54,968 nucleotides of DNA from a virus. Its lineage: Duplodnaviria > Caudoviricetes. The notes beneath the pieces are model-generated. The model was not told the DNA's origin, searched no databases, and saw only the letters and a list, made by a program, of their open reading frames with translations. Within the stretch, counting starts at the first letter, position 1; each line of letters begins with the position of its first letter. Both the position numbers and the translations under genes were made by a program. Shown here piece after piece: positions 3,400 to 29,031 of the stretch. The stretch covers positions 1-54,968 of the IMG/VR virus record IMGVR_UViG_3300014167_000001; one strand, 5' to 3'.

Positions 3400-4611
3400 A
3401 TGGCCCTTCCATTGAGCAACGAGAAGCTGCAGGAGGCGCTTGACGCCTATGCAAAGCACGGTAACCAGCGACAGGCGGCGGCAGCGCTCGGGCTCCCTCG
3501 GGTCACGTTCCAAGCCCGGCTCGACTCCGCCCGCGTCCGGCTCAACGTCGGTGGCTTAACGAGCAAGATTGACGCAACACTGCAGGGGCAGGTGAAGCGG
3601 CTGGAGGCGGAGCTGAAGCGCGCCAACCAGCAGAGCGCGGACGCAGCCGCGATCAAGGCGATCATCGGCGGCCTGTGCGAGCGCACGGCGACGCTGGAGG
3701 CGCCGCGCTGGCTCAACTCGAAGCTGTCGAAGGCGTCGTCACCGGGCGTGCCGACGCTCTTCCTGAGCGACTTCCACTGGGGCGAGGTCGTGCACCCGGG
3801 GCAGATCAACGGCGTCAATCGGTACAATCTCGCGATCGCGCGCGATCGCTTGCAGTACACGGTCGAGACCGGCATCCACCTCTGCAAGATCCTCGACCGC
3901 GACATGGACTACCCGGGCATCGTCGTGCCGCTCGGCGGCGACATGATCTCCGGCAACATCCACGAGGAGTTGGCCGCGACGAACGAACTCAACACGATGC
4001 CGACCGTGCTCGATCTCTACGGGCAGCTCATCGTGGCGATCGAGCGGCTGGCTGATGCTTTCGGCCACGTGTTCCTGCCGTGCGTCACGGGCAACCACGG
4101 ACGCGACACGCGCAAGACGTGGGCGAAGGACCGGCATCACACCAGCTTCGACTGGCTGCTGTATCAGTTCCTCGCGAAACACTTCGAGCGCGACCGGCGC
4201 ATCACGTTCTTCATCCCTGATGGTTCGGACGCTGCATACCGGATCTACGACTACCGCTACCTGCTCACGCACGGCGATCAGTTTAGCGGCGGCGACGGCA
4301 TGATCGGCGCGCTCGGTCCGATCATTCGCGGCGATCACCGTAAGCGCTCGCGCAACATGCAGATCGACATGGAGTACGACACGCTCCTGCTCGGGCACTG
4401 GCACCAGCTCATGATGCTCACGCGGCTGATCGTGAACGGGTCGCTGAAGGGCTACGACGAGTACGCCTATACCGGCAACTTCCCGTTCGAGCTGCCGACG
4501 CAAGGGCTCTGGGTGACGCACCCGCGGCATGGCATCACGTACCGGATGCCGGTGTACGCGACGAGCCAGCCGAAACCGAAGTCGAAGGATTGGGTCAGCA
4601 TTCAACGCTAG
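3400..4611 (+). CDS. Calcineurin-like metallophosphoesterase with N-terminal HTH and coiled coil
   Basis: SDFHWG, GGDMISG, GNHGR, THGD and GHWH motifs; N-terminal QRQAAAALGLPRVTF HTH; GGAG RBS before ATG 3400. Confidence 0.85.
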   Translation: MALPLSNEKLQEALDAYAKHGNQRQAAAALGLPRVTFQARLDSARVRLNVGGLTSKIDATLQGQVKRLEAELKRANQQSADAAAIKAIIGGLCERTATLEAPRWLNSKLSKASSPGVPTLFLSDFHWGEVVHPGQINGVNRYNLAIARDRLQYTVETGIHLCKILDRDMDYPGIVVPLGGDMISGNIHEELAATNELNTMPTVLDLYGQLIVAIERLADAFGHVFLPCVTGNHGRDTRKTWAKDRHHTSFDWLLYQFLAKHFERDRRITFFIPDGSDAAYRIYDYRYLLTHGDQFSGGDGMIGALGPIIRGDHRKRSRNMQIDMEYDTLLLGHWHQLMMLTRLIVNGSLKGYDEYAYTGNFPFELPTQGLWVTHPRHGITYRMPVYATSQPKPKSKDWVSIQR

Positions 4612-4620
4612 GAGAACGCG

Positions 4621-4893
4621 ATGCCTTACATTGAACCGGCGCGGCGCCAATGGCTCGACGCACGCACGGTGATCGCGCAGGAGTTACCCCAGACGAAAGG
4701 GGAGCTGAACTACGTGATCACGCGTGCGATGGTTAGCTTTGTCGCTCGGCGCGGCAAGACCTATCACACGATCAGCGATGCGATCGCAGCGGCGCAGGAC
4801 GCGGCGGACGAGTTCAAGCGGCGCGTGCTCGCGCCGTACGAGAGCACGAAGATTGCCCAGAATGGCGACGTCTACACGGAGATCCTCCCATGA
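4621..4893 (+). CDS. Conserved phage protein (DUF6899-like)
   Basis: MPYI...GELNYVIT...EFKRR...PYE..K..QNGDVY pattern; GGAG RBS. Confidence 0.7.
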   Translation: MPYIEPARRQWLDARTVIAQELPQTKGELNYVITRAMVSFVARRGKTYHTISDAIAAAQDAADEFKRRVLAPYESTKIAQNGDVYTEILP

Positions 4894-5345
4894 AGTGGTA
4901 CCTCGCCGGGCCGATGTCCGGCATTCCGCAGTTTAACTTCCCGGCGTTCGAGGAGGCGGCGAAAGTGCTGCGCTCGCGCGGCATGCACATCATCTCGCCG
5001 CACGAGGAAGATCCGCCGGAGATGCAGGCGGCGGCGTGGGCCTCGCCCGATGGCAAGCTGACCGCAGAAGCGCTTGCCGGTCATACGTGGGGTGAGACGC
5101 TGGCGCGCGACGTCAAGCTGATCTCCGACAACGTCGACGGCATCGTATTCCTCGATCGTTGGTGGTATTCCCGCGGCGCGCGTCTCGAAGCGTTCGTGGG
5201 GTTGCTCACCGGGAAGAAGTTCGCGAAGGCGTCCTATGTCACTTTCCGCGACTTCCTGAAGGACGTGATGGTCACCCGCTTCTCGCATATCGTCGACGCG
5301 GACGACCACTACGTGCGCCGCACCCTAGAGGAGAACATGCCATGA
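4890..5345 (+). CDS. DUF4406 / nucleoside 2-deoxyribosyltransferase-like protein
   Basis: YLAGPMSG..FNFPAF, SPH, D..L....DGI, W..SRGARLE. Confidence 0.85.
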   Translation: MKWYLAGPMSGIPQFNFPAFEEAAKVLRSRGMHIISPHEEDPPEMQAAAWASPDGKLTAEALAGHTWGETLARDVKLISDNVDGIVFLDRWWYSRGARLEAFVGLLTGKKFAKASYVTFRDFLKDVMVTRFSHIVDADDHYVRRTLEENMP

Positions 5346-5785
5346 GCCTGCTCCCCACCGACGACAAGGCCCGCAAGCGTCTGCAGGCGTGGGCCTACCT
5401 GACGGAGTATTTCCCCGACGCGTTCATGGCCGAGGTCGGCGTCGCCGTCGCCGGCAACGAGCAGCACAATCCGGGGCAGCGGCTGCACTGGGCGCGCGAG
5501 AAGTCCACTGACCAGATGAACACGGCCTTTCGTCACCAGCTCGACTACGCGAGCGGCGTGAAGAAGGACACGGACGGTCAGTGGCACCTCGCCAAGGCAA
5601 TCTGGCGGCTGAAGGCGCAGCTCCAGCTCGACATCGAGGCGGAGCGCGCTGCGCAGGCCGAGGAAGAGCGGAAAGTGGCCGAGGCCGCGCAGGTGTACCC
5701 GCACGCTATGCGGGGGAACCCACCGTCATATTCGCTCGATGCCGCCCCCGGGATCTCAGTCGGTGCCCTCGGGTTCGATCTGTGA
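5342..5785 (+). CDS. dATP/dGTP diphosphohydrolase-like protein (DUF5664)
   Basis: YFPDA...V...GNEQHNPG..LHW, RH, D.DG..HLAKAIWR; ATGA overlap with the upstream gene. Confidence 0.75.
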   Translation: MSLLPTDDKARKRLQAWAYLTEYFPDAFMAEVGVAVAGNEQHNPGQRLHWAREKSTDQMNTAFRHQLDYASGVKKDTDGQWHLAKAIWRLKAQLQLDIEAERAAQAEEERKVAEAAQVYPHAMRGNPPSYSLDAAPGISVGALGFDL

Positions 5786-6207
5786 AGATCACGGCGCGCT
5801 CGTTGGACGTCGAGGAGGCGCGCGAGATCCACGCGCTGGCGTTCGCCGCCGATGACTGGGTCGGCGACGATCATACGTTCTGGGCTTACTACAGCGGCAC
5901 GCCCCCGCGCGTCGCCGGGTTCTGTTCTGCGATCCTCCACTCCCCGTCGCCAATGGAGGCGTTCCTGTCACGCTCGGCCGTGGCATTCCGCGTACGAGGG
6001 CGCGGGCTCCAGCGGCGCATGATCCGCGACCGCGTGCGTTGGATCGCCGAGCACCAGCCGCACGCGCGCATCGTGACCTATACGCTGCTCGACAACTACG
6101 CCTCGATCACGAACCTGATCCTGTGCGGCTTCCGTTTCTACGTGCCCAAAAGAAAATGGGCCCACGCGGGCCCATCTTCGGTGCACTACTTCAAACTCGG
6201 CCTTTAG
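5782..6207 (+). CDS. GNAT-family acetyltransferase
   Basis: Acetyl-CoA motif RGRGLQRRMIR and N.AS..NL..CGF; GTGA overlap with the upstream stop. Confidence 0.8.
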   Translation: MKITARSLDVEEAREIHALAFAADDWVGDDHTFWAYYSGTPPRVAGFCSAILHSPSPMEAFLSRSAVAFRVRGRGLQRRMIRDRVRWIAEHQPHARIVTYTLLDNYASITNLILCGFRFYVPKRKWAHAGPSSVHYFKLGL

Positions 6208-7667
6208 AAGTTGTCTTCCCAGCCGAGCCCCCAGACGTAGCAGGGACCGGACGACGCGTAATAGAAGTTCGGCGCGGTGCCCGGATTCTCGATGAGCATC
6301 TCGATGAGAGAGTTGGTGATGCCGTTGTTCGTGTTGCTGAGCACGAACGGCGGCGGGGCGCTCGTCGAGTTGTACGCACCGTAGGCGTTGTTCGGCGCCA
6401 CCATGAGCGTCGCGATGAGCGTCTGCGCCGTGAGGAGCGCCTTCGTAGCCGTCTGCGGCACGGTCGAGGCGAGCGGCACGCTGACCCACGTCGGCGTGAT
6501 CGTCGAGCCAGCCGCGCCGGACACGAGCTGCGGAAGCGCGGTCAGGTTGCCGCTCGACTGCAGCTTCCACTGCGCGCGACGGCCGAACTGCAGCATCGAC
6601 AGCGGGTACTTCGAGCCGTTGTCGGTGCGGATCCAGCCGACTCGGGCGTAGTACGTGTAGCCGCTCGGCAGCGTCGGCGCGGTCGGGCTCAGCGACATCA
6701 GGCCGGCGACAGTCGTCCCGTTGTAGATGATCCACAGCGAGTACCACGTGTTCGTCGCGAGCGAACCGGTGTCGAGCCCATTCGCCACGCCGACCGCCGT
6801 GCCGGCGACGGTGACGTTGACGCTGCGCGCGTTGTAGTAGAGGTTGGCCGCCGTCTCCAGCGCCAGCTCGTCCGCGGTGATCACGATGTTGTTGTTCGTG
6901 CCGTTGGTCGAGACCGCGAGGTTCTTGAACGTGCCCTTGATGCTCGCAGAAGCGACGCCGGGGCCGATCAGCGAGCCGAGCACCGTGAGGTTGCCGTCGA
7001 TTATGCCATTGCCATCGACCGTCAGACCCGTGCCGAGCGAGGTCGTGGTCAGCGAGTAGCACGTCGTCGCGCCGCTCTGGTTGACGATCGAGACCAGAAT
7101 GAACGCGCCGTTCTGGTACATGATGAAATTGATGTTCCCGGGCGCGATCTGCCCGGCGACCAGCGGCGTGCCATCCGAGTTCGTGATATTCACGATACCG
7201 AGCCCGTTGACGTTGACCGTCGAGGCGCCAGTGTTGGCGTGGGTTGCGTTCCAGTAGAACATCACGCCGTTCGAGTACGAGCTGAAGCCGCTGGTCGCGG
7301 CGGTCAGGATGTACGCGTTCGCGGCGCCGCTGTCGACCGCGTAGAGACTGAGCGCGGCGTTCGCAGTGCTCGCCCCGGGCAGGTACGGGTCAACGTCTTC
7401 CAGCTTCGCGCCACCAGCGCTCCAGAGCTGCACCCGGTAGACCGTGCTCGGGTTTAGGTAGATCGGCGGGAAGCGGCCCGCGCTGTCGGACGTCACCTGA
7501 CCGGCAGGCGAGAACGGCGTCGTGAGCGCGCCGTCCTGATAGACCGCGGCCGGCGTCGTGCCGCCAGTGAAGTAGAACTGCAGATAGCAGCCGGCCTGAA
7601 ACTGCCCCGCGATCGAGAGCGGCTTCACCTGCGGGTCGGAGAACAGAATGCCAGAGGGTGCGGTCAT
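6204..7667 (-). CDS. Tail spike/fibre protein with N-terminal head-binding-like domain
   Basis: N-terminus (LQFY..GTTP..VYQD...T...DSAGRF..IYL) resembles podoviral tailspike attachment domains; Gly/Thr/Asn-rich beta body; last late gene. Confidence 0.75.
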   Translation of the reverse strand: MTAPSGILFSDPQVKPLSIAGQFQAGCYLQFYFTGGTTPAAVYQDGALTTPFSPAGQVTSDSAGRFPPIYLNPSTVYRVQLWSAGGAKLEDVDPYLPGASTANAALSLYAVDSGAANAYILTAATSGFSSYSNGVMFYWNATHANTGASTVNVNGLGIVNITNSDGTPLVAGQIAPGNINFIMYQNGAFILVSIVNQSGATTCYSLTTTSLGTGLTVDGNGIIDGNLTVLGSLIGPGVASASIKGTFKNLAVSTNGTNNNIVITADELALETAANLYYNARSVNVTVAGTAVGVANGLDTGSLATNTWYSLWIIYNGTTVAGLMSLSPTAPTLPSGYTYYARVGWIRTDNGSKYPLSMLQFGRRAQWKLQSSGNLTALPQLVSGAAGSTITPTWVSVPLASTVPQTATKALLTAQTLIATLMVAPNNAYGAYNSTSAPPPFVLSNTNNGITNSLIEMLIENPGTAPNFYYASSGPCYVWGLGWEDNF

Positions 7668-7676
7668 GCGTGAGTC

Positions 7677-10600
7677 CTACCAGTTTTCGATTGCATCTTT
7701 CTCGGCCTGCGTCACCGGCTTGCCGCCGGCACGCTCCGCAGCCCGTTGCTGGCGCACGCCTTCGAGGCGCTGCGCCGCGTTCATCAGGTGAGGCGCGAGA
7801 GCGCGCTGAGCAGACGCCCGCGCTTTGCTTGCAGTGGGCTCGACGGGGGCCGCTCCCTGCGCTCCATGTAGCTGCTCAAGGCCGCTACCGTATCCGGCGC
7901 TGCGGAGGGCGGCGGCGTGGACGGGGTGGGCGAAGAGGTTGTGGAAGTCTGAGGTGCCGCGAATGAGGTCATGCGTGATGTCCTTGTCCTTCACCAGCTC
8001 GGGGATTGATTTCGTCTGACCAGCAGCGTCGGCGTGCTCGTACGCGGTCTTCGCCCACGACCACACCGTTTCCTGCACCTCGGCCGGTGTCCACTGCTCA
8101 CCCGTGAGATGCGTGAGCATCGCAGCCGCCTGCCGCACCTTGGCGTTGTACGCGAGGTAGGCGCTGCTCTTGCCGGGGCCGCTCTTGTTCATCGAGCCGC
8201 CCAGTTTCGCCGGGTTGAGGTTTGCGAACGCCGACATCCACGCGTCGTTCGTGACCTCGTGGACGTTGTCGCGCAGGTTCTGGAGGAATGAGTTGACCTT
8301 CGGGCCGCTGAGCATCGGCACCCTCTCCGGGTCCGGGTGCGTCAGCGCGCGAATGCTGTTGTTGGTCCACGCGTCGAGCACGCTAGCCTCGCCCTTGTCG
8401 CCCTGCACCGACTTGCCCATGATCGCCTTGATCTTAGCGGGATCGGTCGGGCGCCCGGCGGCATCCCAGTTGACGAACGTCTGCACAGCGTTGTGGAAGT
8501 TCGACTCGACGCTCACCTGCGGCGACATCGCGGCGAGGAGCGCCGTGAACCGCGGCGCGTCGCCGCCGAACACGGTGTGGATCGCGTTCGCCGCGTTCCT
8601 GTACCAGCCACGCTTGGCTTCGCCAGCGAGCGCGGCCGCCGCCAGCTCGTGCGTCGGCGGCAGTTCGTGGAAGATGTTCACGACGTTCGCGGCGACGTTC
8701 TTGCGCGCCGTCTGCTTCTGCTCCTCGGGCGTGAGGTGCTTGTTGATCTCTTCAATCGGCAACGGCTTGTCCCCGGGGAGCCGGTAGTCGTCCTTACCGA
8801 TTATCTTCGCGATGCTAGGATCGAACAGGACGAAGTTGCGAGAACCTTCGCCTTTACCTCGACTACCTGCGTCCAGATACTTCACGCCCGGAATGCCAAG
8901 CTGATGCAGGGCTGCGCTCGCGGTACGCGGGTCGCGGTCTGTGATACCACCCTTGTGACCGTAGTCCCAACGCCCAGTGCCACCTGCCGCAATGTTCGAG
9001 ATCGCGTGGTACAGTTGCTCGCCGGTCATGGCGTTAACCGTTTCAGGCTTGGCGAGGTTCCGAAGATACGGATTCTTGTCGGTCGTGAGAGACCGAAGCG
9101 CAGCCACTACTTGAGGCTGTTTACCGACCGGTTTGTCCCAGTCAAGCATCTTCGCAACGTGCTCGTCGGGTACATCCACGTGATAAAGCGCGCCTTTAGG
9201 CTGTAGTCGCGCTACAGCGTCATCGTACGCCGTGTTAGCGGCTTTGGCTTTATGCCATTCGGCCATTTCCGCGGACGGCAAATTCCCGGTGGCGCGCATC
9301 TTCATGTTCAGTGTAATGAACCGATCTTGCTGCGCACGCGTCGGTAGCTCCGGCAACTGAGCCCGCAGCTCGGGAGTCCACAGATCAACACCCTTCCGCA
9401 TAGTCAGAACTTTCTGATAGCTGCGGGCCACGTCGGGATTTTCTGCGACATACACTCCGTGCCCATACACCTGTGCACCCTCGCCCGTGCCAATCTTCTC
9501 TGCACGGAACCGACCGAACGGGTGTCCCTCTTCGGGTTCAAATTCATGCGGTGTACCGTGCCAGCCGACGCTGCCACGCTGACCCTTGCCGAACGCAGAC
9601 TGACCGAGCGGCTTGCCGCCCGGACCGCCGCCCGGACCGCCGACCTTCGTCGCGGGCACGGACTCGAAGAGCCGCGCCTGCCCGTGCATGAGCGGATAGT
9701 CCGGGTTGTCGACGTGATAGCCTGCGTAACCAGCCTTCTTGATCGCGGCTTCGTACGCGTCGAAGGACTTCCCCTTGCGCAGGTTGTCCGGATCGTTCAC
9801 CGCGTCGTAGAGCCGCGACTTCGGCACCTGTGCCGTGTACTGGTGCGGCGCGCCCTGCGTCACCAGCTTCTCGGGCTGCTCCGCGTTCATCTTCTCCGGA
9901 TAGAACGCGCTGACCTTCGTCGAGCGGTTGCGCTCGGCGTTGGTGCCGCGCGTGCCGGTGCCCTGCATCTCCGGGTTGATCGTCTTGAGATCGGGCTGGC
10001 TGCTGAAGTGGCGCAGCGTCACCATCGGCTCGCTCTTCGAGGCGCCGGCCTTGCGCACCCCGATCGCCCCCGACTGACTCTTGCCGGCGGCGGTCTGACC
10101 GAGCGGAGTCTCGCCCGGCCCACCGCCGTTAGGGCCCGGTGGACCGGCTTCCGGCGGTTCGAGCCGCCGGATGCGTGCCTCCGTGGACTTGGCGAGCGAC
10201 TTCTCGATGAACTTGCCGCCCATCTTCTCCAGCCCGTAGCCGATCACGGCGCCCGGGATGTGCCCGAGCAGCGCGCCGACCGTCTCGGCATGGCCGAGCG
10301 CGCCCTCGACCGCGCGGGCCTTGAGGTTGAGCCCCTGCGCGACGGCGCCCGGATACGAGCGATCCATGCGCAGGTAGTTGCCGGCGTCGTTGAGCACCTT
10401 GTACTGCTGCAGCTCCTCGGGCGTGTGCACGAGCGACATGCCGCCGATGTTTTGCTTCAGGTACGCGTTGACCTTCTTGACGTTCCACGCGCCGTTCGGT
10501 GCGTTGCTGTCGCTGCCGGCCGCGAGCACTTCGTTCGCGTAGTGCGCGCGCAGCTCGTTGAGCGCGGCGGCGGAGCGCTCCGCCATCTCGGGCGAGACCT

Positions 10601-13196
10601 TCGCTGCCATCTTGTACACGTCGACGAGGTGCGCGAGCTGCTCGCGACCGAGCCCGGCGACGTGCTTCGGGATGTCTTCGAGGTCGACCGGGCGATTGAT
10701 GCCGAGCCGATCGTCGGGCTTGCGCAGCGCCTGCACGCCTTCGGGCTCTTCGAGCACCTTGCCCTGCAGCGAGCGGACGTCGCGCGCGTCCTTGTAGATG
10801 TCCTCGCCCGCCACCTTCGCGACGTCGAGGTCGAGCGCGCCCTTGAGGCGGCCGATCAGGCGCGCGGTGCGCGGCGTCCAGTTGTCGTTCAGGTACTGGC
10901 GGAACTGCTCCGCCTGCTCGACCGTCGCCGGGTTGAACGTGTCGTTCGCGCCCGTGAGGCCGAGTTCCTTCGCCCGCGCCATCACGCCTTCGTAGAGCTG
11001 CTTGCCCTCGGTAGTGCCGAGGAACTGCGCCTTCTCTTTGGCGAGGATGTTGCCGGTGTCGCCGAGCTGGAACGGCCGACCCTGCGCGCGTTCGGTGGCG
11101 ATCGCGTAATGCTGTTTGATCAGGTCTTCGAGGTGTGCCTCGTACGCCTCGATCGGCGCCGTCATCGTGCGACCGCGACGCTCGCGGTCGATCTGGTCGT
11201 TGCCGCTCGTGCCGCCGCTCTTGTCGACAAGATCCTCGGCCATGCTGTGCAGCGCGGCGCGCTCGTTGGCGATCACCTCGGCCATGCGCGCGCCCGCCTG
11301 TCCGCCGCCGGTCTTGCCGGTCAGCTTCGAGGTCTGGACGTCGGTGCCGGCCTCGCGCGTGTCGCCCGTGATGGCGCTCTCGCGCACTTCCTTGAGGCCG
11401 TGCGGCACGAGCTGGCGCAGCGTCGCCTCGCGCTCGGCCTGCTGTGCCTCGGGCACCGGGCCGGTCTGCGCGCCCTCGCGCGTCGGCGGCTCGAAGGACA
11501 CCGGCTTCTCGGTCTGCGGCTTGAGCGCGGGCGCGGCCTTCGGCTTGACACCCGCGGGCGTCGCCGCGTAGTGCTGGCCGTTCGCGTCGCGCGTCCACGA
11601 GTCGAGCCCCTGCGCGGCCTCGGGCTCGACCGGGCCCCACTTGCCGACCGGCTCGGTGTGGCCGTCCGCATAACGGAGCACGCTGTTGCCGTTCGGGTCG
11701 ACGTGGAGCACGGACTCCTGCCCGTGGACCTTGGCGAGCCCCTCGACGAGCGATCGTGCGCCCGGGGTCGGGGTCTGCACCGCGAAGGAATTCTCGGTGC
11801 TGCCCTTGTAGTTGCCGAGCGTCGGCGTGTGCGGCACGCCGAACGCCTTGAGCTGGTTCGCCAGCTCCGCCGTCGCGGCTGCGTTCTGCTCGGGCGTGTT
11901 GCCGGCCTTCTCCGCCGACAGCATCGAGAACGGCGCCTTGCCGCTCAGGTCGACCGGCAATTTGGGGGCCGGGGCCTTGGGAGCCCCGGGCTCGGCAGCG
12001 GCGCTGGGCGCCTCTCCGGCGGCCTTGGGGCCGACCTCGTAGACCGGCTTTAGCTCGCTCTTGCTGACCTTCTCGCCCGTCCCGGGGTCGACCGTGTTCG
12101 GGTTTTCCTTGACCGGGTAGCCGCGCCGCTCCAGCGCCGCGTAGACGTTCTGCTCGGGCTCGGACACGCGAGTGTCGCTCTGGTGCGCCAAGCCGCGGGC
12201 CTGCGCCTCGGCGTTCAGGCGCTCCTGAGCGGCCACCATCTGGCCCTGACCGCGCGCGTCCTCGGGCACCTCGGCGTGGTTGACGCGCAGCGTGCCCTGC
12301 TCCTGGTCGGCAACCGCCGTCAGCTTGGCGCCGGCAGCAGTCGTCACCGTGTGCGTGTTGCCGTCGACCCGGTGGCCGGTCTGGATCGGCTCTGCGGTCG
12401 CCTGCGGGGCGGCAGGCGCCGCCGGAGCCGCGGGGCCGGGCTCAGCGCCCGGGGCCGGCTTGGCGCCCTGCGCCGGGCCCCCGAAGCGCTCCGGCATCGG
12501 GGCGGCGTGCAGCTCCTCGGGAGAGTAGCCGCCCGGGGCAACAGGAGGCACCGGGGCGGCCGGAGCGGCAGTCTTGGGGGCAGTGGCCTTGGCGACCGCG
12601 TGGCCTGTCGCCGCGCCTGCTACGACGCTGGCGGCGGTCTGGAGCGCCGGGTTGTCCGTGACCTCGCCGACGCCCTGCCCGGCCGCGCCCATCGCAGCGC
12701 CGGCCGTCGCGGCGGCAGCGACCGGAAGCGCTCGGAGAGGTGCGCCGATCAAGCCCGGGGCAACGCCTTCCCCGGCCGCGGACAGGACACGGTTCGTGGT
12801 CGTGTCCTCGCCGTTCGGCTGCAGGAACCCGCCCGCGCCGGCATCGGCCGCCTTCTGGCGCCACCAGCCGGTGCTGCCGACTGTCTTCGCCTGCTCCTCG
12901 GGGCTCGCGGGCTGGAGCCAGTCGGGAATGTCGTTGCCGGTCGCTTCATGATACGCGGTGCCGGCGGCGGCCTTTCCGACTTCCATGACGTTGCGCGCGG
13001 TGTCGACCGGGAGCCCGAGCACGTCAGTGACGCCCTTGTTGAGCCCGGTCGCGATCGCGCTCGCGGCGCCAGACGCTGTCGTCTTCGGCGCAGCGACCGG
13101 CTCATCAGCCTCCCACGGCGCAGCCGGCGCCGCGCTCGAAGCGCTCGCGACCGGTGCATCCGCTTCCCACGGGGCAGCAGTGTTCGCCATGATCAA
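7677..13196 (-). CDS. Giant ejection/DNA-transfer polyvalent protein (GNAT, SAM-lyase-like, two ART-like and glycosylase-like domains)
   Basis: 1839 aa; third gene of the ejection locus; N-terminal PWE repeats and Gly/Ala hydrophobic helices; domain motifs are listed under findings. Confidence 0.8.
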   Translation of the reverse strand: MIMANTAAPWEADAPVASASSAAPAAPWEADEPVAAPKTTASGAASAIATGLNKGVTDVLGLPVDTARNVMEVGKAAAGTAYHEATGNDIPDWLQPASPEEQAKTVGSTGWWRQKAADAGAGGFLQPNGEDTTTNRVLSAAGEGVAPGLIGAPLRALPVAAAATAGAAMGAAGQGVGEVTDNPALQTAASVVAGAATGHAVAKATAPKTAAPAAPVPPVAPGGYSPEELHAAPMPERFGGPAQGAKPAPGAEPGPAAPAAPAAPQATAEPIQTGHRVDGNTHTVTTAAGAKLTAVADQEQGTLRVNHAEVPEDARGQGQMVAAQERLNAEAQARGLAHQSDTRVSEPEQNVYAALERRGYPVKENPNTVDPGTGEKVSKSELKPVYEVGPKAAGEAPSAAAEPGAPKAPAPKLPVDLSGKAPFSMLSAEKAGNTPEQNAAATAELANQLKAFGVPHTPTLGNYKGSTENSFAVQTPTPGARSLVEGLAKVHGQESVLHVDPNGNSVLRYADGHTEPVGKWGPVEPEAAQGLDSWTRDANGQHYAATPAGVKPKAAPALKPQTEKPVSFEPPTREGAQTGPVPEAQQAEREATLRQLVPHGLKEVRESAITGDTREAGTDVQTSKLTGKTGGGQAGARMAEVIANERAALHSMAEDLVDKSGGTSGNDQIDRERRGRTMTAPIEAYEAHLEDLIKQHYAIATERAQGRPFQLGDTGNILAKEKAQFLGTTEGKQLYEGVMARAKELGLTGANDTFNPATVEQAEQFRQYLNDNWTPRTARLIGRLKGALDLDVAKVAGEDIYKDARDVRSLQGKVLEEPEGVQALRKPDDRLGINRPVDLEDIPKHVAGLGREQLAHLVDVYKMAAKVSPEMAERSAAALNELRAHYANEVLAAGSDSNAPNGAWNVKKVNAYLKQNIGGMSLVHTPEELQQYKVLNDAGNYLRMDRSYPGAVAQGLNLKARAVEGALGHAETVGALLGHIPGAVIGYGLEKMGGKFIEKSLAKSTEARIRRLEPPEAGPPGPNGGGPGETPLGQTAAGKSQSGAIGVRKAGASKSEPMVTLRHFSSQPDLKTINPEMQGTGTRGTNAERNRSTKVSAFYPEKMNAEQPEKLVTQGAPHQYTAQVPKSRLYDAVNDPDNLRKGKSFDAYEAAIKKAGYAGYHVDNPDYPLMHGQARLFESVPATKVGGPGGGPGGKPLGQSAFGKGQRGSVGWHGTPHEFEPEEGHPFGRFRAEKIGTGEGAQVYGHGVYVAENPDVARSYQKVLTMRKGVDLWTPELRAQLPELPTRAQQDRFITLNMKMRATGNLPSAEMAEWHKAKAANTAYDDAVARLQPKGALYHVDVPDEHVAKMLDWDKPVGKQPQVVAALRSLTTDKNPYLRNLAKPETVNAMTGEQLYHAISNIAAGGTGRWDYGHKGGITDRDPRTASAALHQLGIPGVKYLDAGSRGKGEGSRNFVLFDPSIAKIIGKDDYRLPGDKPLPIEEINKHLTPEEQKQTARKNVAANVVNIFHELPPTHELAAAALAGEAKRGWYRNAANAIHTVFGGDAPRFTALLAAMSPQVSVESNFHNAVQTFVNWDAAGRPTDPAKIKAIMGKSVQGDKGEASVLDAWTNNSIRALTHPDPERVPMLSGPKVNSFLQNLRDNVHEVTNDAWMSAFANLNPAKLGGSMNKSGPGKSSAYLAYNAKVRQAAAMLTHLTGEQWTPAEVQETVWSWAKTAYEHADAAGQTKSIPELVKDKDITHDLIRGTSDFHNLFAHPVHAAALRSAGYGSGLEQLHGAQGAAPVEPTASKARASAQRALAPHLMNAAQRLEGVRQQRAAERAGGKPVTQAEKDAIENW

Positions 13197-15211
13197 CCCT
13201 TCGTCCGTGTGACACCATTCGGGTCGACGTACGTCTGACCCGACTTCAGTTTCGCGTAGTCAGCGGCAGTCTTCACCGTGACCGGCGCCGCGCGCTGAAT
13301 CTGTCCCGACTGGCCGACGCCCGGCGGATTGTTCGGCGGCGCTTCGCCGGTCATGCCGGTCTGCACGTTCGAGGGCCGCGGGAAGCGATCCTCATAGTCG
13401 AACTGGCGCGAGTCGTTGCCAGCGTTCACCCACGCACGAGCCGCGCGGGACTTGCCGATCTCGTACTGCGCGTCGCTCTTCTCCCAGTCGAGCATCTGCT
13501 TGACCGCGAAGCGCGACAGGTCCGGATTCGCGCTCAGTGAGTTGAGGATGAGCCCCGACTCCTGCGCGCCGAGACGCACCTGCGCGCCCTCGCCATGCAA
13601 CTTCGACAGGATCGTGTTGAGCTGGTCCTGACCGAGTTCCTTGCCGAGCAACTGGCGCATCGCGGCGCTGTTCTCGATCGCGTCCGCGGCCTGCTGACCG
13701 GTCCAGTTACGGAACACGGTCTGCACTTCGGCCCAGCCCGCGGAGCCGGGGCCAAGGGTCGTGGACTTGTCGAGCGCGGCCGCGGCGCGATTCACGTTGA
13801 CGAGCGTCGTCTGCGCAGTCTGCGCGCCGGTCGTCGCTTCGCTCAGGAGCGCGTTCGTCGCCTTCGTGTATGCAGTCTGCGCCTCGACTTCGCCCGGACT
13901 CGGCTTCGCGTTGCCTGTGTTGAGGAAAGCCGGTGCCTTGGGACCGCTCTGCACGTACGCCTGCTGCGTTGGCGTGAGCTGCGACGGCAGGGTGCCGGCG
14001 TTCGGCGAGCCACCTTTCGCGGCCGGGGCCGTGGCTGGGGCCGCAGCGGGCGCGGTGCCCGAGGTGTTCGCGGCCGGCGCTGTACCGGCGGCCGAACCTG
14101 CTGCGATGTTGGCCTGATGCCCCTGCATGTTGACCCACTGCGCCTTGCTGGTCGCGCCGTCCGCCTGCCACTGCGGCACCTGCATCTCGCGCCCGTTGCG
14201 CGTGACGGTGACGATCGCATCGGCCTTCGTGCCGAGTTCGCTCCAGTCCTTCGAGCTGAGCCCGGTCGGGTTGCCGCCGAGCACCGGGTTGTTCGTCTGC
14301 GCATCACGCGCGACGCCGTCGGTACCGACCGTGATCTCGCGCCCCGAGTAGCGGTGCGCGGCGTTGCCGGCCTCGGTCGCGTACTGACGCACGAAGCCGT
14401 CGGTCTGCTCAGGCGTCCAGCCGTTCTTCTTCGCGAGCTGGTCGATCTGGTTGCCCATGTCCGGGTGATACGCCTTCAGCAGCCCGAGCGCCGTGCCGGG
14501 ATCCGCCTTCGCGATCGCGTCCGACTGGTCGTAGAAGTTGCTCGCGGCGAGCTGCGCCTTGCTCGACGCTGTTTGAATGCGGGCATCGTGCATGGCCGTG
14601 ACGTTCGCCGTCAGGTCGGGAAGCCCCATCATCTTCATGGTGGCGGCTGTCTGATACTGCTGCAGCTCCTGCGGCGTCCAAATGGGCTTCACCGCAAAGT
14701 TCCGCTGGGCCGTCTGATCAATGTGCCCCGGATCGAGCCCAATCGACGCAGCCGCCGACGTACCGCCCCCAGCGCCGCCAGACGCGGGCGTGCCACCCGT
14801 AGCGAGCGTGGGTGTGCTGTCATCGCCAGCGCCGCCGATGTTTCCAGCGCCGCCACCCGCACCGCCGACCAGCGCGGCGCCGGCATCCGAGGCGCCCCCG
14901 GCGAGGTTGGTTAGCGCGCTGCCAGCGTCGGCGCTGGAAATAGCGGAATCGCTGCCACCCCCACCACCGGTTCCGGACGCGTCCGCCATGGGCGTCGAGT
15001 CGTTGACCGCTGGCGCCTGCATCCCGCTCATGTACTTCTTCAAGACGTCGAGCTGCAATTGTGACTTTTGATTGGCGAGATTGGCGCCCGTCGTCTGCGC
15101 ACTCGCGAGCCCCGCGTTGGCGTAGGAACTCGCCGCGTTCGCGTTGGCGGTCGTCTGCGAGGACAGGAGGTCGCCGTAATTGGCGAGCGGGGTCACCGGA
15201 AGGTCAGCCAT
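13193..15211 (-). CDS. Putative ejection (DNA injection) protein
   Basis: 672 aa, Ala/Gly/Gln-rich helical; C-terminal YAKLKSGQTYVDPNG motif; synteny with P22 gp20. Confidence 0.7.
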   Translation of the reverse strand: MADLPVTPLANYGDLLSSQTTANANAASSYANAGLASAQTTGANLANQKSQLQLDVLKKYMSGMQAPAVNDSTPMADASGTGGGGGSDSAISSADAGSALTNLAGGASDAGAALVGGAGGGAGNIGGAGDDSTPTLATGGTPASGGAGGGTSAAASIGLDPGHIDQTAQRNFAVKPIWTPQELQQYQTAATMKMMGLPDLTANVTAMHDARIQTASSKAQLAASNFYDQSDAIAKADPGTALGLLKAYHPDMGNQIDQLAKKNGWTPEQTDGFVRQYATEAGNAAHRYSGREITVGTDGVARDAQTNNPVLGGNPTGLSSKDWSELGTKADAIVTVTRNGREMQVPQWQADGATSKAQWVNMQGHQANIAAGSAAGTAPAANTSGTAPAAAPATAPAAKGGSPNAGTLPSQLTPTQQAYVQSGPKAPAFLNTGNAKPSPGEVEAQTAYTKATNALLSEATTGAQTAQTTLVNVNRAAAALDKSTTLGPGSAGWAEVQTVFRNWTGQQAADAIENSAAMRQLLGKELGQDQLNTILSKLHGEGAQVRLGAQESGLILNSLSANPDLSRFAVKQMLDWEKSDAQYEIGKSRAARAWVNAGNDSRQFDYEDRFPRPSNVQTGMTGEAPPNNPPGVGQSGQIQRAAPVTVKTAADYAKLKSGQTYVDPNGVTRTKG

Positions 15212-15222
15212 TATTCATCCCC

Positions 15223-16017
15223 TTACGAGAACAGGCTCAAGATACCGCTGAGTGCACTGGCACCGCCGCTGGCGCCACCGCCGCTGCCCGGGCTCGTGAG
15301 TCCTGTGATCATGCTGTTCCACGCGCCAGCGTTACCGAGGATGCCGCTCGCGTTCGCGTTGCCGATGCCCATCTGCGCCGCGCCGATGTTGGCGGACGTG
15401 CTGAGATTGGCGTTCGAGACGTTCGTCGCCGCCGTCTGGCCCATGCCAGCCATACTGAGCAGGTTGCCGACGTAGCTTTGGTACTGCTGACTCGCGACAC
15501 CCTGCGCGTAGGTGTCTTCGTTGTTCATCGTCGCGGTCGAGTAGAGGTTCCCGTTCGCGGAGGCGTTGCGATTGATCGCGTTCTCGCCCTGCGTGAGCGC
15601 GAACTGGTAGTTCGGCGAGTTGTAGAAGCCGGCGTAGTTCGCGTTGTTCGGATTGGCGCCGCCTGTTGAAGTGCCCCCGCCCCCACCTCCGCTGCCGCCC
15701 CCGCCGCCAGCTCCGGTAACGGTGTTGGTGCCTACCTGCGTCGTGCCGACCGTGCCGCCAGCGCCGCTGTTGCCGCCGCCGATGCCGTAGAGCTGGTCCA
15801 GCAGGTTTGTCGCGCCGCCACCCATGTTGGTGTACGGCGCCAAAATGTTCTGGGTGTTCGCGTACGCGTTCTGCTCGGTGCCGACCGCCTGCGTCATGCC
15901 GCCAGTTTGCGCAGCCGCGGCGGCGCTCGAAGCGTTCGCAGAGGTGATCCCCTTGGCAACGGCGCCGGCTCCCGCGACGATCGCGCCTACCGCAACTGCA
16001 CTGAGTCCGAACGTCAT
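15223..16017 (-). CDS. DNA transfer/ejection protein (P22 gp7-like)
   Basis: Hydrophobic Gly/Ala N-terminus (MTFGLSAVAVGAIVAG), LAPY, SPNYQF..QG..AI..ASA.G.L.S. Confidence 0.8.
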   Translation of the reverse strand: MTFGLSAVAVGAIVAGAGAVAKGITSANASSAAAAAQTGGMTQAVGTEQNAYANTQNILAPYTNMGGGATNLLDQLYGIGGGNSGAGGTVGTTQVGTNTVTGAGGGGGSGGGGGGTSTGGANPNNANYAGFYNSPNYQFALTQGENAINRNASANGNLYSTATMNNEDTYAQGVASQQYQSYVGNLLSMAGMGQTAATNVSNANLSTSANIGAAQMGIGNANASGILGNAGAWNSMITGLTSPGSGGGASGGASALSGILSLFS

Positions 16018-16502
16018 TGAATTTTCTCCGGTAGCGCCAACGGCGCCATCCCAAGCTGCGGGTTCCGCGTCTGCAGGCGGTCCGCCTCTTCTACTAGGTC
16101 GTCCTCGATGTCCTCGGGAGACGTCTTGTTGGTGCTGTGCACGGTGGTCCACACCGTCTCGGCGTGCGCGAACCCCGCCCGCTTGCTGCCCGCCGCCACC
16201 GGGAACACGTGCTGGCCCGTGAAACGCCTCGGGCCGTCTTCGGTCGTGACCGTGATGTCGCCCGTGACGATCACTATGTGGTCGTGCTTGTGCACGGCGC
16301 CCGTGATGATCGTGGCCGCCGGCAGCGTGATCGAGCGCGCGTAGACGCCGCCGCTCAGGCAGTGCTGCGTCTTGAGGTCCACCTGCGGATACTGTAGCAG
16401 GTGCTGTTCCAACCGCTCCACCTTCTCGCGCGTCGTGCGCGCGGGAAGGCGGCGTGGCGGAATGGTCAGTGAGAAGCTGATGCCGGGGGCGGGGCTTTGC
16501 AT
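16014..16502 (-). CDS. Cupin-like phage protein
   Basis: H..SGGVYAR.I..PA...ITGAVHK.DH, G.KRAG.AH.ETVWTTVH. Confidence 0.7.
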   Translation of the reverse strand: MQSPAPGISFSLTIPPRRLPARTTREKVERLEQHLLQYPQVDLKTQHCLSGGVYARSITLPAATIITGAVHKHDHIVIVTGDITVTTEDGPRRFTGQHVFPVAAGSKRAGFAHAETVWTTVHSTNKTSPEDIEDDLVEEADRLQTRNPQLGMAPLALPEKIQ

Positions 16503-28789: not shown

Positions 28790-29031
28790 GTCGGCAGTTC
28801 CTCCACGATGATGCGGCGCTGACCAACCGCGACGTAGGCGTCGGTAGTCTTGCCGGCGGGTACGACGACGGGCGCCACTGGCGCCGGCTTCCACCTCACC
28901 ACTTTCTGCGCCTCACCAGTTGGCTTGCCGTGCTTGTCGAGCACGGGTTTCGTGCTGATGTCGGCGTCCTCGAAGCTGACGCGCATGGCGTTTAGCTGAC
29001 TGTGGTTCTTCACGGAAATCTGCGTAGTCAT
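28786..29031 (-). CDS. Hypothetical protein
   Basis: 81 aa with GAGGA RBS; its stop overlaps the portal start. Confidence 0.65.
   Translation of the reverse strand: MTTQISVKNHSQLNAMRVSFEDADISTKPVLDKHGKPTGEAQKVVRWKPAPVAPVVVPAGKTTDAYVAVGQRRIIVEELPT

What the first reader, a model, noticed from the sequence alone, without database searches (positions are those of the whole stretch)
7677..13196. Injected multi-enzyme polyprotein: an ejection protein carrying a chain of candidate counter-defence domains
Seen: the 1839-aa third gene of the ejection locus is a string of globular blocks separated by Pro/Ala/Gly linkers. These are a GNAT-like block (~12040-12370, V.HAEVPEDARGQG...VY.AL.RRGY), a SAM-lyase-like block (~11570-11935), a helical core, two ART-like blocks (~9655-10025 and ~8800-9570) and a HhH/glycosylase-like block (~8040-8620). 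Known: P22-type ejection proteins enter the cell with the DNA, and phage polyvalent proteins carry ART and GNAT domains. Inference: this is a pre-transcriptional package that depletes SAM, acetylates or ADP-ribosylates targets and acts on DNA bases at the moment of injection. I do not know this exact domain combination from a described phage.
Basis: partly seen in the sequence, partly recalled or inferred. Interest (0 to 1): 0.88.

Follow-up and report, generated by a model that had tools for sequence, protein, structure and literature searches.

The report
Giant multi-enzyme phage ejection protein
The third and largest gene of a P22-like phage's DNA-ejection gene trio encodes a chain of swappable modules (a SAM-cleaving enzyme, an acetyltransferase-like block, two ADP-ribosyltransferase-like blocks and a very widespread domain of unknown fold) that is probably shot into the host together with the DNA.

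Summary
The ORF and its block structure are real. The window is a complete 54,968-bp phage genome with a P22-type structural module. Gene 7677-13190(-) sits where P22 has gene 16.

Domain calls:
- SAM lyase: solid. Pfam gives 68 bits against a cut-off of 28, and the G-x-Y, E and Q-E-S substrate-binding residues are present.
- GNAT-like block: supported only at family level.
- Block B (residues 1205-1480): a divergent ART-PolyVal domain (hhalign 96-97%). It is a clean ~260-residue cassette that the closest relatives lack.
- Block A (residues 1045-1185): confidently folded, with a weak but consistent ART likeness.
- Both ART-like blocks keep the His and Tyr but lack the strand-5 Asp at the aligned position.
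- "HhH/glycosylase" block: not supported. It is DUF7178, an all-alpha domain (pLDDT 91) with no PDB neighbour. It is strongly conserved (45-60% identity) in the best 150 representative matches, many of them giant phage polyvalent proteins.

Relatives keep the core and C-terminal domain and shuffle the rest. Core-only relatives have P22-like gene sizes.

Verdict: a polyvalent ejection protein, which is a known concept (Iyer 2017), with a new module set. I found no paper describing a SAM lyase in such a protein. Packaging and injection are inferred, not shown. Fast depletion of the SAM pool by a few injected copies is quantitatively doubtful.

The parts
7677..13190 (-). Whole gene, 1837 aa from the ATG (1839 codons from the upstream TTG at 13196); polyvalent third gene of the ejection trio
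   Evidence: P0002, 1837 aa, 100% identical
12402..13190 (-). N-terminal region, residues 3-265. It is Ala/Gly/Pro-rich with a moderately hydrophobic stretch at 144-205 (maximum Kyte-Doolittle 1.41). It is shared with 7 other proteins besides the window's own P0001 and its twin P0002.
12021..12401 (-). GNAT-like block, residues 266-392. The motif-A-like loop R315-G-Q-G-Q-M320 is degenerate.
11517..11969 (-). SAM lyase domain, residues 410-560 (Pfam match 425-545). Key residues are G461-x-Y463, E468 and Q493-E494-S495.
10161..11516 (-). Conserved core, residues 561-1012. It is the part shared with core-only relatives. It has no Pfam, PHROG or PDB match.
10065..10160 (-). Linker 1 (residues 1013-1044), GPPGPNGGGPGETPLGQTAAGKSQSGAIG. 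Its DNA is repeated in linker 2.
9642..10064 (-). Block A, residues 1045-1185. A compact alpha/beta domain, ART-like, with H1063 and Y1099 present and Ala1158 at the 'GYDG' Asp position. No Pfam family matches it.
9585..9641 (-). Linker 2 (residues 1186-1204), GGPGGGPGGKPLGQSAFGK
8757..9584 (-). Block B, residues 1205-1480. A divergent ART-PolyVal-type domain with helical inserts. The cassette absent from relatives is about residues 1217-1476 (nt 8769-9548).
7680..8756 (-). C-terminal DUF7178 domain, residues 1481-1839 (Pfam match 1492-1713). All-alpha, confidently folded, with no PDB neighbour.
15223..16152 (-). First gene of the trio, 309 aa. It hits phrog_598 'DNA ejection' and has a TM-like segment at residues 46-66.
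13193..15211 (-). Second gene of the trio, 672 aa. No family match, but it is syntenic in related loci.
6204..7667 (-). Downstream 487-aa gene in the tailspike position. It hits phrog_17105 and weakly matches the Mtd second domain.

Best explanation
This is the cargo-carrying third ejection (internal virion) protein of a P22-like podovirus, and it belongs to the class called polyvalent proteins. A lineage-conserved N-terminal region and a ~450-residue core form the ancestral ejection-protein part. Onto it are strung exchangeable effector cassettes joined by Gly/Pro linkers: a GNAT-derived block, a SAM lyase, two ART-PolyVal-like domains (A and B) and a C-terminal DUF7178 domain. Inferred mechanism: the protein is packaged in the capsid, leaves through the tail with the DNA, and delivers its modules into the cell before any phage gene is expressed. 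There the SAM lyase cleaves SAM, or a SAM-derived molecule such as SAM-AMP, into MTA and homoserine lactone, which blunts SAM-dependent defences. The GNAT-like and ART-like modules modify or bind host targets, and DUF7178 performs a conserved but unknown task. Shown here: the architecture, the domain identities at the stated levels, the synteny and the cassette shuffling. Inferred: packaging, ejection, the targets and the counter-defence role.
For: Genome context:
- The genome is complete, with terminal repeats.
- The gene order is P22-like: terminase, P22 portal (1.9e-144), P22 coat (1.3e-25), Hc3-like gene, then a trio of 309/672/1839 aa, then a fibre-like gene. P22 has genes 7/20/16 followed by the tailspike.
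- The first trio gene hits phrog_598 'DNA ejection' at 7.4e-29 and 'DNA injection/transfer' proteins of Xfas53.
- Ten related loci (L005-L011, L013-L015) keep gpB, the big gene and the downstream gene in order. Seven of them also show gpA.
- Core-only relatives have trios of 268/478/634 aa (L003) and 351/479/1052 aa followed by a tail spike (MW202520).

SAM lyase:
- PF23780 scores 68.4 bits against a cut-off of 28.
- G461-x-Y463, E468 and Q493-E-S correspond to the residues Guo et al. found conserved: Gly56, Tyr58, Glu69 and Gln104, together with Glu105 and Ser106.
- G and Q are invariant and E is at least 90% conserved in 14 rows.

GNAT-like block:
- With the family profile, all 27 PDB hits at E<=10 are acetyltransferases or GNAT-type entries, the best at 1.2e-4.
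- 10 of 20 family members hit PF14542.

Block B:
- 43 of 54 family members hit ART-PolyVal.
- hhalign against bona fide ART-PolyVal gives 95.9% in local mode and 97.0% over 180 columns in global mode.

Block A:
- The AF2 model has pLDDT 85.4.
- 31 of the 40 listed Foldseek rows are named ARTs or PARPs.
- 28 of 30 named ESM-Atlas neighbours are ART-PolyVal clusters, at score 0.92.

Modularity:
- Among 28 other core-bearing proteins, 11 have the SAM lyase, 11 the GNAT-like block, 9 block A and 0 block B, in varying order.
- Block B is a clean insertion relative to P0003, P0005 and P0010.

Precedent:
- Iyer 2017 predicts that phage polyvalent proteins are packaged and injected, with ART and GNAT as neighbours (passages).
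- phi24B gp47, a 2811-aa polyvalent protein, was found in virions by proteomics and proposed as an ejection protein (passages).
- In vir555 a block-B-bearing 1974-aa gene follows an 'internal virion protein' gene and a 566-aa gene.
Against: - No direct evidence that this protein is in the virion.
- The core has no detectable similarity to P22 gp16 (hhalign 1.9%) and no PHROG or PDB match. 'Ejection protein' is therefore positional only.
- The window's own blocks A and B and its GNAT block do not reach any Pfam threshold.
- 0 of 7 whole relatives gave a GNAT hit at E<=0.01.
- No Foldseek hit for block A reaches E<=0.001; the best is E 0.085 and the highest TM-score is 0.46. hhalign of block A against ART-PolyVal gives only 29-35%, and against block B 2-4%.
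- The ART-PolyVal strand-5 Asp aligns with Pro1436 in block B and Ala1158 in block A. Asp occupies that position in only 4 of 21 block A relatives.
- SAM lyases act as trimers, and nothing here shows that the fused domain trimerises.
- Rate argument: about 9.5 turnovers per second per site times roughly a dozen copies (recalled for P22 E-proteins) against roughly 1e5 SAM molecules per cell (recalled) is far too slow for instant depletion.
- The DUF7178-always-present pattern is biased, because those relatives were retrieved through that region.
Confidence: 0.6

Rival explanations
1. The protein is mainly a structural ejection or channel protein. Only the SAM lyase is an enzyme. The ART-like and GNAT-like blocks are degenerate pseudo-enzymes that serve as binding, spacing or packing modules, and DUF7178 is a structural plug or DNA- or portal-contacting domain.
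For: The canonical Asp of the H-Y-D site is replaced in both ART-like blocks (definition). The window's GNAT motif A reads R-G-Q-G-Q-M rather than Q/R-x-x-G-x-G/A (the motif is recalled). The window's blocks fall below Pfam thresholds. DUF7178 is all-alpha with no enzyme neighbour.
Against: Block B has 25 invariant and 31 nearly invariant columns, many of them polar (H, D, K, E, Y, R), across 54 sequences at 27% mean column identity. DUF7178 has many invariant polar residues and 45-60% identity across very different proteins. Such patterns are more typical of active sites or specific ligand sites than of spacers. The modules recur in multiple copies in giant polyvalent proteins outside any ejection context.
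Confidence: 0.2
2. The protein is a late-expressed polyvalent enzyme that acts in the producing cell, or is not delivered to the cytoplasm of the next host (for example it stays in the periplasm or the envelope). Its position next to ejection genes then reflects co-expression only.
For: There is no virion evidence. The core is not homologous to any characterised ejection protein. The rate argument against fast SAM depletion by a few copies (plus recalled numbers) would not apply to abundant late-made protein.
Against: The conserved three-gene synteny has P22-like sizes in the core-only relatives. There is a proteomic precedent for a polyvalent protein inside a podovirus capsid. The same carrier position is used in an unrelated podovirus. 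The start codon lies 2 nt from the stop of the preceding trio gene.
Confidence: 0.15
3. One reading: a package that also includes an HhH-type DNA glycosylase acting on DNA bases at injection.
For: None from tools.
Against: The profile search of 177,635 PDB sequences gave no relevant hit (best E 0.092, an oxidoreductase). The confident model (pLDDT 91, pTM 0.90) has no PDB match at E<=0.001 among 350,542 chains, and its best rows are unrelated helical proteins with TM-scores of 0.09-0.15. Pfam assigns only DUF7178.
Confidence: 0.03

Closest known systems
Phage polyvalent proteins (Iyer, Burroughs, Anand, de Souza, Aravind 2017, PMC5512222; passages read)
   Same: Many unrelated catalytic modules sit in one polypeptide. 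The gene is encoded among late and virion genes. It has ART-PolyVal-type domains, sometimes in several copies, with a GNAT beside the ART. The proteins are predicted to be packaged and injected. Blocks A and B and DUF7178 occur in hundreds of 1000-5000-aa proteins that carry LPD and ART-PolyVal families.
   Different: The paper's main text never mentions SAMase or S-adenosylmethionine (0 occurrences; its supplementary domain lists could not be seen). DUF7178 and block A are not among the Pfam LPD families. This protein is built on an ejection-protein core rather than on MuF, portal, methylase-helicase or N4-RNAP modules.
P22 ejection proteins gp7/gp20/gp16 (record NC_002371)
   Same: Same place in the same gene order, after the Hc3-type gene and before the tailspike or fibre gene. 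The first gene of the trio matches the 'DNA ejection' family. Core-only relatives have sizes 268/478/634 aa, against 229/471/609 aa in P22.
   Different: There is no detectable sequence relationship between the core and gp16. The protein is three times longer and carries enzyme cassettes.
Phage SAM lyases (T3 SAMase, Svi3-3; Guo 2021, PMC7877911; passages read)
   Same: Pfam S-AdoMet_lyase match above threshold. The conserved G-x-Y, E and Q-E-S substrate-binding residues are present.
   Different: The known enzymes are small, free, early-expressed trimers. Here the domain is embedded at residues 410-560 of a late, presumably packaged, 1837-aa protein. No PDB sequence is matched directly.
phi24B gp47 (bioRxiv 10.64898/2026.04.10.717836; passages read) and T4 Alt (as described)
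   Same: A large polyvalent protein detected in podovirus virions and proposed as an ejection protein; an ART that is packaged and injected with the DNA.
   Different: gp47 carries LPD5, LPD1, LPD38 and MuF-C domains, not the modules found here. Alt is an R-S-E ART, not the H-Y-D type.

Membership tests
Polyvalent proteins (Iyer 2017) | Several (2-15) unrelated domains in one polypeptide | tested here: met
   Seven segments were delimited, five of them with separate homologue sets.
Polyvalent proteins (Iyer 2017) | Encoded beside late or virion genes of a phage | tested here: met
   P22-type portal, coat, Hc3 and ejection genes lie upstream and a fibre-like gene lies downstream.
Polyvalent proteins (Iyer 2017) | Packaged in the virion and delivered with the DNA | not testable with these tools
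   Only analogy is available.
S-AdoMet lyase (PF23780) | Pfam gathering score reached | tested here: met
   68.4 bits against a cut-off of 28 for the isolated block, and 62.7 bits in the whole protein.
S-AdoMet lyase (PF23780) | Conserved substrate-binding residues (Svi3-3 Gly56, Tyr58, Glu69, Gln104, with Glu105 and Ser106) | tested here: met
   G461, Y463, E468 and Q493-E494-S495 are present. G and Q are invariant and E is at least 90% conserved in A13. The correspondence was made by motif order, not by structural superposition.
S-AdoMet lyase (PF23780) | Homotrimer with active sites at subunit interfaces | not testable with these tools
   No usable result was obtained; see Tried and rejected.
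GNAT acetyltransferases | Pfam GNAT family at gathering score | tested here: not met
   The window block scores 13 bits against a cut-off of 30 for PF14542. The best relative scores 27.7 bits. 0 of 7 whole relatives gave a hit at E<=0.01.
GNAT acetyltransferases | Profile-level similarity to solved GNATs over motif A (beta4-alpha3) | tested here: met
   All 27 PDB hits are acetyltransferase or GNAT-type entries, the best at 1.2e-4. 10 of 20 members hit PF14542, 8 hit PF13508 and 7 hit PF00583.
GNAT acetyltransferases | Acetyl-CoA loop Q/R-x-x-G-x-G/A (motif recalled) | tested here: inconclusive
   Most relatives have it, for example Q-G-x-G-E-G. The window reads R-G-Q-G-Q-M, one residue shorter than in P0005.
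ART-PolyVal (PF18760; H-Y-D site): block B | Homology to the family profile | tested here: met
   hhalign gives 95.9% with E 5.8e-9 in local mode and 97.0% over 180 columns in global mode. 43 of 54 relatives hit PF18760. The window's own block gives no Pfam hit at E<=1.
ART-PolyVal (PF18760; H-Y-D site): block B | His (strand 1), Tyr (strand 2), Asp (strand 5) | tested here: not met
   H1213 and Y1249 are present. The Asp of 'GYDG' aligns with Pro1436 of the nearly invariant 'GIPG'. An invariant Asp (D1442) lies 6 residues further on. No structure was made for block B.
ART superfamily: block A | ART fold | tested here: inconclusive
   The model has pLDDT 85.4. No PDB match reaches E<=0.001, but 31 of the 40 listed rows are named ARTs or PARPs, with ParT at TM 0.45. 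hhalign against ART-PolyVal gives 29-35%. Atlas neighbours are ART-PolyVal clusters.
ART superfamily: block A | H-Y-D catalytic residues | tested here: not met
   H1063 lies in strand 1 and Y1099 in strand 2 of the model. The Asp position is Ala1158, and Asp occupies it in only 4 of 21 relatives.
HhH DNA glycosylases | Fold or sequence similarity to HhH-GPD enzymes | tested here: not met
   Searches found no glycosylase among the hits and nothing below E 0.09.
P22-type ejection proteins | Position in the P22 gene order | tested here: met
P22-type ejection proteins | Sequence homology of the third gene to gp16 | tested here: not met
   hhalign probability 1.9%.

The most novel reading that the evidence does not exclude
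Podoviruses of this lineage use the third ejection protein as a plug-and-play delivery vehicle. Its cassettes are swapped by recombination in repeated linker DNA. It delivers a pre-made SAM lyase whose real target may be a low-abundance SAM-derived signal such as SAM-AMP rather than the bulk SAM pool. Its most conserved passenger, DUF7178, would be an undescribed all-alpha enzyme or host-factor binder with a new fold, possibly the most widespread unexplored module of phage polyvalent proteins.
Probability: 0.25. Interest if true: 0.8.

Novelty: new variant of a known kind. Interest (0 to 1): 0.6.

Why it matters
Counter-defence proteins that arrive with the DNA act before any phage gene is expressed. 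That is the window in which restriction, BREX and similar systems decide the outcome of infection. A packaged SAM lyase would be a new way of using a known anti-restriction enzyme. The shuffled family gives a natural series of constructs for testing which cassette counters which defence.

Two further results stand apart from the injection question:
- DUF7178 is confidently folded, has no relative among solved structures, and is conserved at 45-60% identity across the 150 best representative proteins.
- Block A is an ART-like family that Pfam does not describe.

Both are concrete targets for structural and biochemical work on polyvalent proteins.

Tried and rejected
- Complex prediction of three copies of the SAM-lyase domain returned 'no answer'. 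It is not used as evidence either way.
- HhH/glycosylase reading: rejected.
- Near-identical DNA in deposited phages: none found.
- Whole-protein tblastn against 50,697 phage records gave only 6 partial hits, each covering at most 24% of the protein.
- Core against PHROGs and PDB: nothing found. Core against P22 gp16: 1.9%.
- SAM-lyase block against PDB by sequence: 0 hits.
- A search for longer SAM-lyase fusions in the word-indexed collection returned only the 3 proteins already known. This is weak evidence because of the index.
- I tried to fold blocks A and B together. MAFFT placed the block A rows onto block B columns twice, so only block A was folded. Block B and the core have no model.
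- The search for related loci with block A alone found nothing. With alignment A3 it was not accepted for lack of a conserved stretch. Smaller alignments worked.
- No general junction or cleavage motif was found upstream of blocks A and B in 150 and 72 occurrences.
- Host assignment: the genome collection gave one core homologue, on a bog MAG contig labelled Solirubrobacterales. That is too thin to name a host.
- Earlier findings of the scan: none.
- Literature: 'DUF7178' appears in 0 papers. 'SAM lyase' plus 'ejection protein' appears in 2 papers, one read in passages and unrelated. 'Polyvalent proteins' plus 'SAM lyase' appears in 1 paper, in unrelated passages. A broad six-term search was uninformative.
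Full report
WHAT IS THERE

The window is a complete viral record of 54,968 bp with direct terminal repeats. The ORF 7677..13196 on the minus strand is open for 1839 codons. The database twin P0002 starts at the ATG two codons in and has 1837 aa. That ATG lies 2 nt after the stop of the preceding gene, 13193..15211. A 20-residue sliding count of P, A, G and S shows linkers at about residues 11-50, 141-180, 201-270, 391-420, 1011-1040 and 1181-1210. I cut the protein into seven segments:
- N-terminal region, residues 3-265
- GNAT-like block, 266-392
- SAM lyase, 410-560
- core, 561-1012
- block A, 1045-1185
- block B, 1205-1480
- C-terminal domain, 1481-1839

GENOME CONTEXT

The structural module is P22-like. 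It contains:
- a large terminase at 29054-30613
- a P22-type portal at 26708-28894 (PF16510, 1.9e-144)
- a P22 coat at 24313-25581 (PF11651, 1.3e-25)
- an Hc3-type gene at 21859-23334 (phrog_578, 3.6e-64)

After these come a 309-aa gene (phrog_598 'DNA ejection', 7.4e-29), a 672-aa gene, the 1839-codon gene, and a 487-aa gene with a weak Mtd second-domain match. P22 itself runs 2, 1, 8, 5, 4, 10, 26, 14, then 7 ('DNA ejection', 229 aa), 20 (471 aa), 16 (609 aa) and later the tailspike.

The first trio gene also matches 'DNA injection/transfer' proteins of Xylella phage Xfas53. It has a TM-like segment with Kyte-Doolittle 2.0 at residues 46-66.

In ten IMG/VR loci (L005-L011, L013-L015; two pairs are near-duplicates) the second trio gene, the big gene and the downstream gene are syntenic. 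Seven of them also show the first gene.

Two relatives have the core without the C-terminal decorations:
- L003 has ORFs of 268, 478 and 634 aa followed by a fibre-like gene.
- GenBank MW202520 has 351, 479 and 1052 aa followed by a tail spike.

The core is thus the positional equivalent of gp16. I could not show homology, because hhalign of the core profile against P22 gp16 gives 1.9%. The core has no PHROG or PDB match.

SAM LYASE

Pfam S-AdoMet_lyase scores 62.7 bits in the whole protein and 68.4 bits for the isolated block, against a cut-off of 28. PHROG 2226 also matches at 1.2e-12.

Guo et al. (PMC7877911, passages read) report that only Gly56, Tyr58, Glu69 and Gln104 (with Glu105 and Ser106 nearby) are conserved among active SAM lyases. 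They also report that the enzyme is a trimer with a turnover of about 9.5 per second. The window has G461-N-Y463, E468 and Q493-E494-S495 in that order. In a 14-row alignment the G and Q are invariant and the E is at least 90% conserved. No PDB chain is matched by sequence alone.

GNAT-LIKE BLOCK

The window's own block gives only 13 bits to Acetyltransf_CG. Relatives P0010 and P0005 give E-values of 3e-6 and 0.0086. Seven further whole relatives give nothing at E<=0.01.

A 20-row family alignment (A11) changes the picture. All 27 PDB sequences at E<=10 are acetyltransferase or GNAT-type entries, the best at 1.2e-4, and they are aligned over the motif A region. Of the 20 members, 10 hit PF14542, 8 hit PF13508 and 7 hit PF00583.

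Most relatives show a Q/R-x-x-G-x-G/A loop (motif recalled). The window reads R-G-Q-G-Q-M, one residue shorter than in P0005. I therefore call it GNAT-derived, with unproven competence in this particular protein.

BLOCK B

A region search found 542 proteins of 1011-3219 aa at E<=0.001. Many carry ART-PolyVal and LPD families. Block B occurs in tandem copies: three in P0009, ahead of a bona fide ART-PolyVal domain, and two in P0004.

In a 54-row alignment from viral contigs, 43 members hit ART-PolyVal (best 1.6e-8) and 36 hit DUF3990. The window's own block hits nothing at E<=1.

hhalign against a 14-row alignment of bona fide ART-PolyVal domains gives:
- 95.9% with E 5.8e-9 over the His-to-Tyr part
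- 97.0% over 180 columns in global mode

The PDB profile search shows only sub-threshold tankyrase matches, at E 1.7-3.6, over the same N-terminal part.

Iyer et al. (passages) define the ART-PolyVal site as His in strand 1, Tyr in strand 2 and Asp in strand 5. Block B has H1213 and Y1249. The Asp of 'GYDG', however, aligns with the Pro of the nearly invariant 'GIPG'. An invariant Asp lies six residues downstream.

BLOCK A

No Pfam family matches any of 21 members. A 55-row alignment gave an AF2 model with pLDDT 85.4 and pTM 0.77.

Foldseek against the PDB found nothing at E<=0.001. Of the 40 rows listed:
- 31 are named ADP-ribosyltransferases or PARPs (ParT at TM 0.45, pertussis and cholera toxin A chains, DarT1, tankyrases, PARP4, PARP10 and PARP14).
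- 7 more are toxin or anti-CRISPR entries that I recall to have the ART or RES fold.
- 2 are unrelated or of unknown function.

Other lines of evidence:
- The ESM Atlas places 28 of 30 named neighbours in ART-PolyVal clusters at score 0.92, where only 20-22% of cluster members carry the family.
- hhalign against ART-PolyVal gives 29-35%.
- hhalign against block B gives 2-4%.
- MAFFT twice laid block A rows on block B columns with the His, G-T-G, Y-D..D-P and G-Y-x-G-Y motifs in register.

H1063 and Y1099 sit in strands 1 and 2 of the model. The Asp position is Ala1158, and Asp occupies it in only 4 of 21 relatives. Block A is probably a minimal ART-fold domain (my estimate about 0.7), and its chemistry is open.

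C-TERMINAL DOMAIN

Pfam gives DUF7178 at 39.6 bits against a cut-off of 27. The exhaustive search with residues 1045-1839 found 12,780 representative proteins at E<=0.001 and 933 at E<=1e-30. All 150 listed matches include the DUF7178 part at 37-74% identity (mostly 45-60%), in proteins of 590 to 4959 aa. In six of them the best matched stretch also spans block B.

A 50-row alignment gave a model with pLDDT 91.0 and pTM 0.90. It is entirely helical.
- Foldseek against 350,542 PDB chains gave no match at E<=0.001. The best was E 0.18 with TM 0.13.
- The profile search of PDB sequences gave nothing relevant.
- In BFVD the fold recurs in pieces of large phage proteins labelled ART-PolyVal-like, LPD, helicase, SleB or RelA/SpoT, and in small uncharacterised proteins.
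- The Atlas returns only DUF7178 clusters.
- No paper in the library mentions DUF7178.

The HhH/glycosylase label is therefore rejected. The domain has many invariant polar residues, which suggests a specific activity or ligand.

MODULARITY

Among 269 proteins collected, 30 carry the core, counting the window's protein and its twin. Of the other 28:
- 11 have the SAM lyase
- 11 have the GNAT-like block
- 9 have block A
- none has block B

All 28 have DUF7178, but they were retrieved through that region, so this last count is biased.

The order varies:
- SAM lyase before GNAT in P0010
- GNAT after the core in five proteins
- DUF7178 before the core in P0131
- block A inside DUF7178 in P0130

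Against the closest relative, P0003, residues 2-1216 and 1477-1839 align colinearly, and about 260 residues (block B) replace three residues. The relatives still end the preceding linker with G-Q-R-G-S-V-G-W. In block B and its homologues that sequence is the strand leading into the catalytic His. This looks like a remnant of a deleted or exchanged cassette.

The DNA of the two linkers flanking block A is repeated: 9579-9632 against 10074-10127, at 78% identity. That repeat offers a substrate for such exchange. This last step is inference.

MECHANISM AND ITS WEAK POINTS

The best reading is a packaged, ejected carrier of effector cassettes. Three precedents support it:
- Iyer 2017's prediction for phage polyvalent proteins.
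- The proteomic detection of the 2811-aa polyvalent gp47 in phi24B virions.
- An independent case in Caudoviricetes sp. vir555. There a 1974-aa gene with a block B homologue follows an 'internal virion protein' gene and a 566-aa gene and precedes a tail gene.

Nothing here shows packaging directly.

The figures are 9.5 turnovers per second per site, roughly a dozen copies per virion (recalled for P22 E-proteins) and roughly 1e5 SAM molecules per cell (recalled). Together they give a time scale of many minutes, without counting resynthesis.

A low-abundance substrate fits better. Chi et al. (PMC10600005, passages) showed that a SAM-lyase-type enzyme degrades the type III CRISPR signal SAM-AMP. 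They suggested that such enzymes on mobile elements could act as anti-CRISPRs. This is a lead, not a finding.

COMPARISON AND NOVELTY

The concept (polyvalent proteins, with ART and GNAT as neighbours, delivered with the DNA) is in print. Four things appear not to be:
- a SAM lyase as a module of such a protein
- the ejection-protein core as the carrier scaffold with documented cassette shuffling
- the block A family
- any description of DUF7178

The searches behind 'not in print' were made, with passages read. The supplementary tables of Iyer 2017 could not be read and might list some of these domains under other names.

I rate it a new variant of a known kind, with interest 0.6.

Noticed in passing
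window 9579-9632 and 10074-10127: The DNA encoding the two Gly/Pro linkers that flank block A is a direct repeat of 78% identity over 54 nt. It is a possible recombination substrate for cassette gain or loss.
   Followed up: partly
P0003 residues ~1225-1240, P0005, P0010 (relatives lacking block B): The relatives keep the motif G-Q-R-G-S-V-G-W (or close variants) at the junction. In block B this sequence is the strand leading into the catalytic His, so it looks like a remnant of a lost cassette.
   Followed up: partly
P0130 (1649 aa), residues 1145-1634: A block A copy sits inside the DUF7178 domain, which matches at 1145-1289 and 1452-1634, with block A at 1300-1441. This implies a permissive loop in that domain.
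   Followed up: no
L008, L010, L015 versus L007, L009, L011: In some related contigs the big gene is broken into two ORFs, with the DUF7178 part in ORFs of 542-948 aa and the core upstream in another frame or ORF. L007 and L008 are otherwise near-identical. The breaks could be sequencing errors or real split forms.
   Followed up: no
window 6204-7667 (-) and downstream genes of L005-L015: The first ~100 residues of the 487-aa downstream gene are conserved at 44-56% identity across related loci, and the rest varies. There is a weak match to the second domain of the Bordetella phage tropism determinant Mtd. It is probably a fibre with a conserved anchor and a variable receptor-binding part.
   Followed up: no
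window 9459-12053 (+): An 864-codon ORF runs antisense to the gene, and there are several others of 150-500 codons. With 63-71% G+C and all the homology on the minus strand, these are chance ORFs.
   Followed up: partly
L224 (BK063671, Caudoviricetes sp. vir555) 3498-9422; L223 (Tunturiibacter phage Tunturi_5) gp273: Block B homologues sit in two other contexts. One is a 1974-aa gene that follows an 'internal virion protein' gene and a 566-aa gene. The other is a 1489-aa gene of a 309-kb phage, annotated 'MutT/NUDIX hydrolase' and lying next to a minor head protein gene.
   Followed up: partly
L220 (contig of a bog MAG labelled Solirubrobacterales): This is the only core homologue in the 185,579-species genome collection (34% identity). 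It may be a prophage or a mis-binned phage contig.
   Followed up: no
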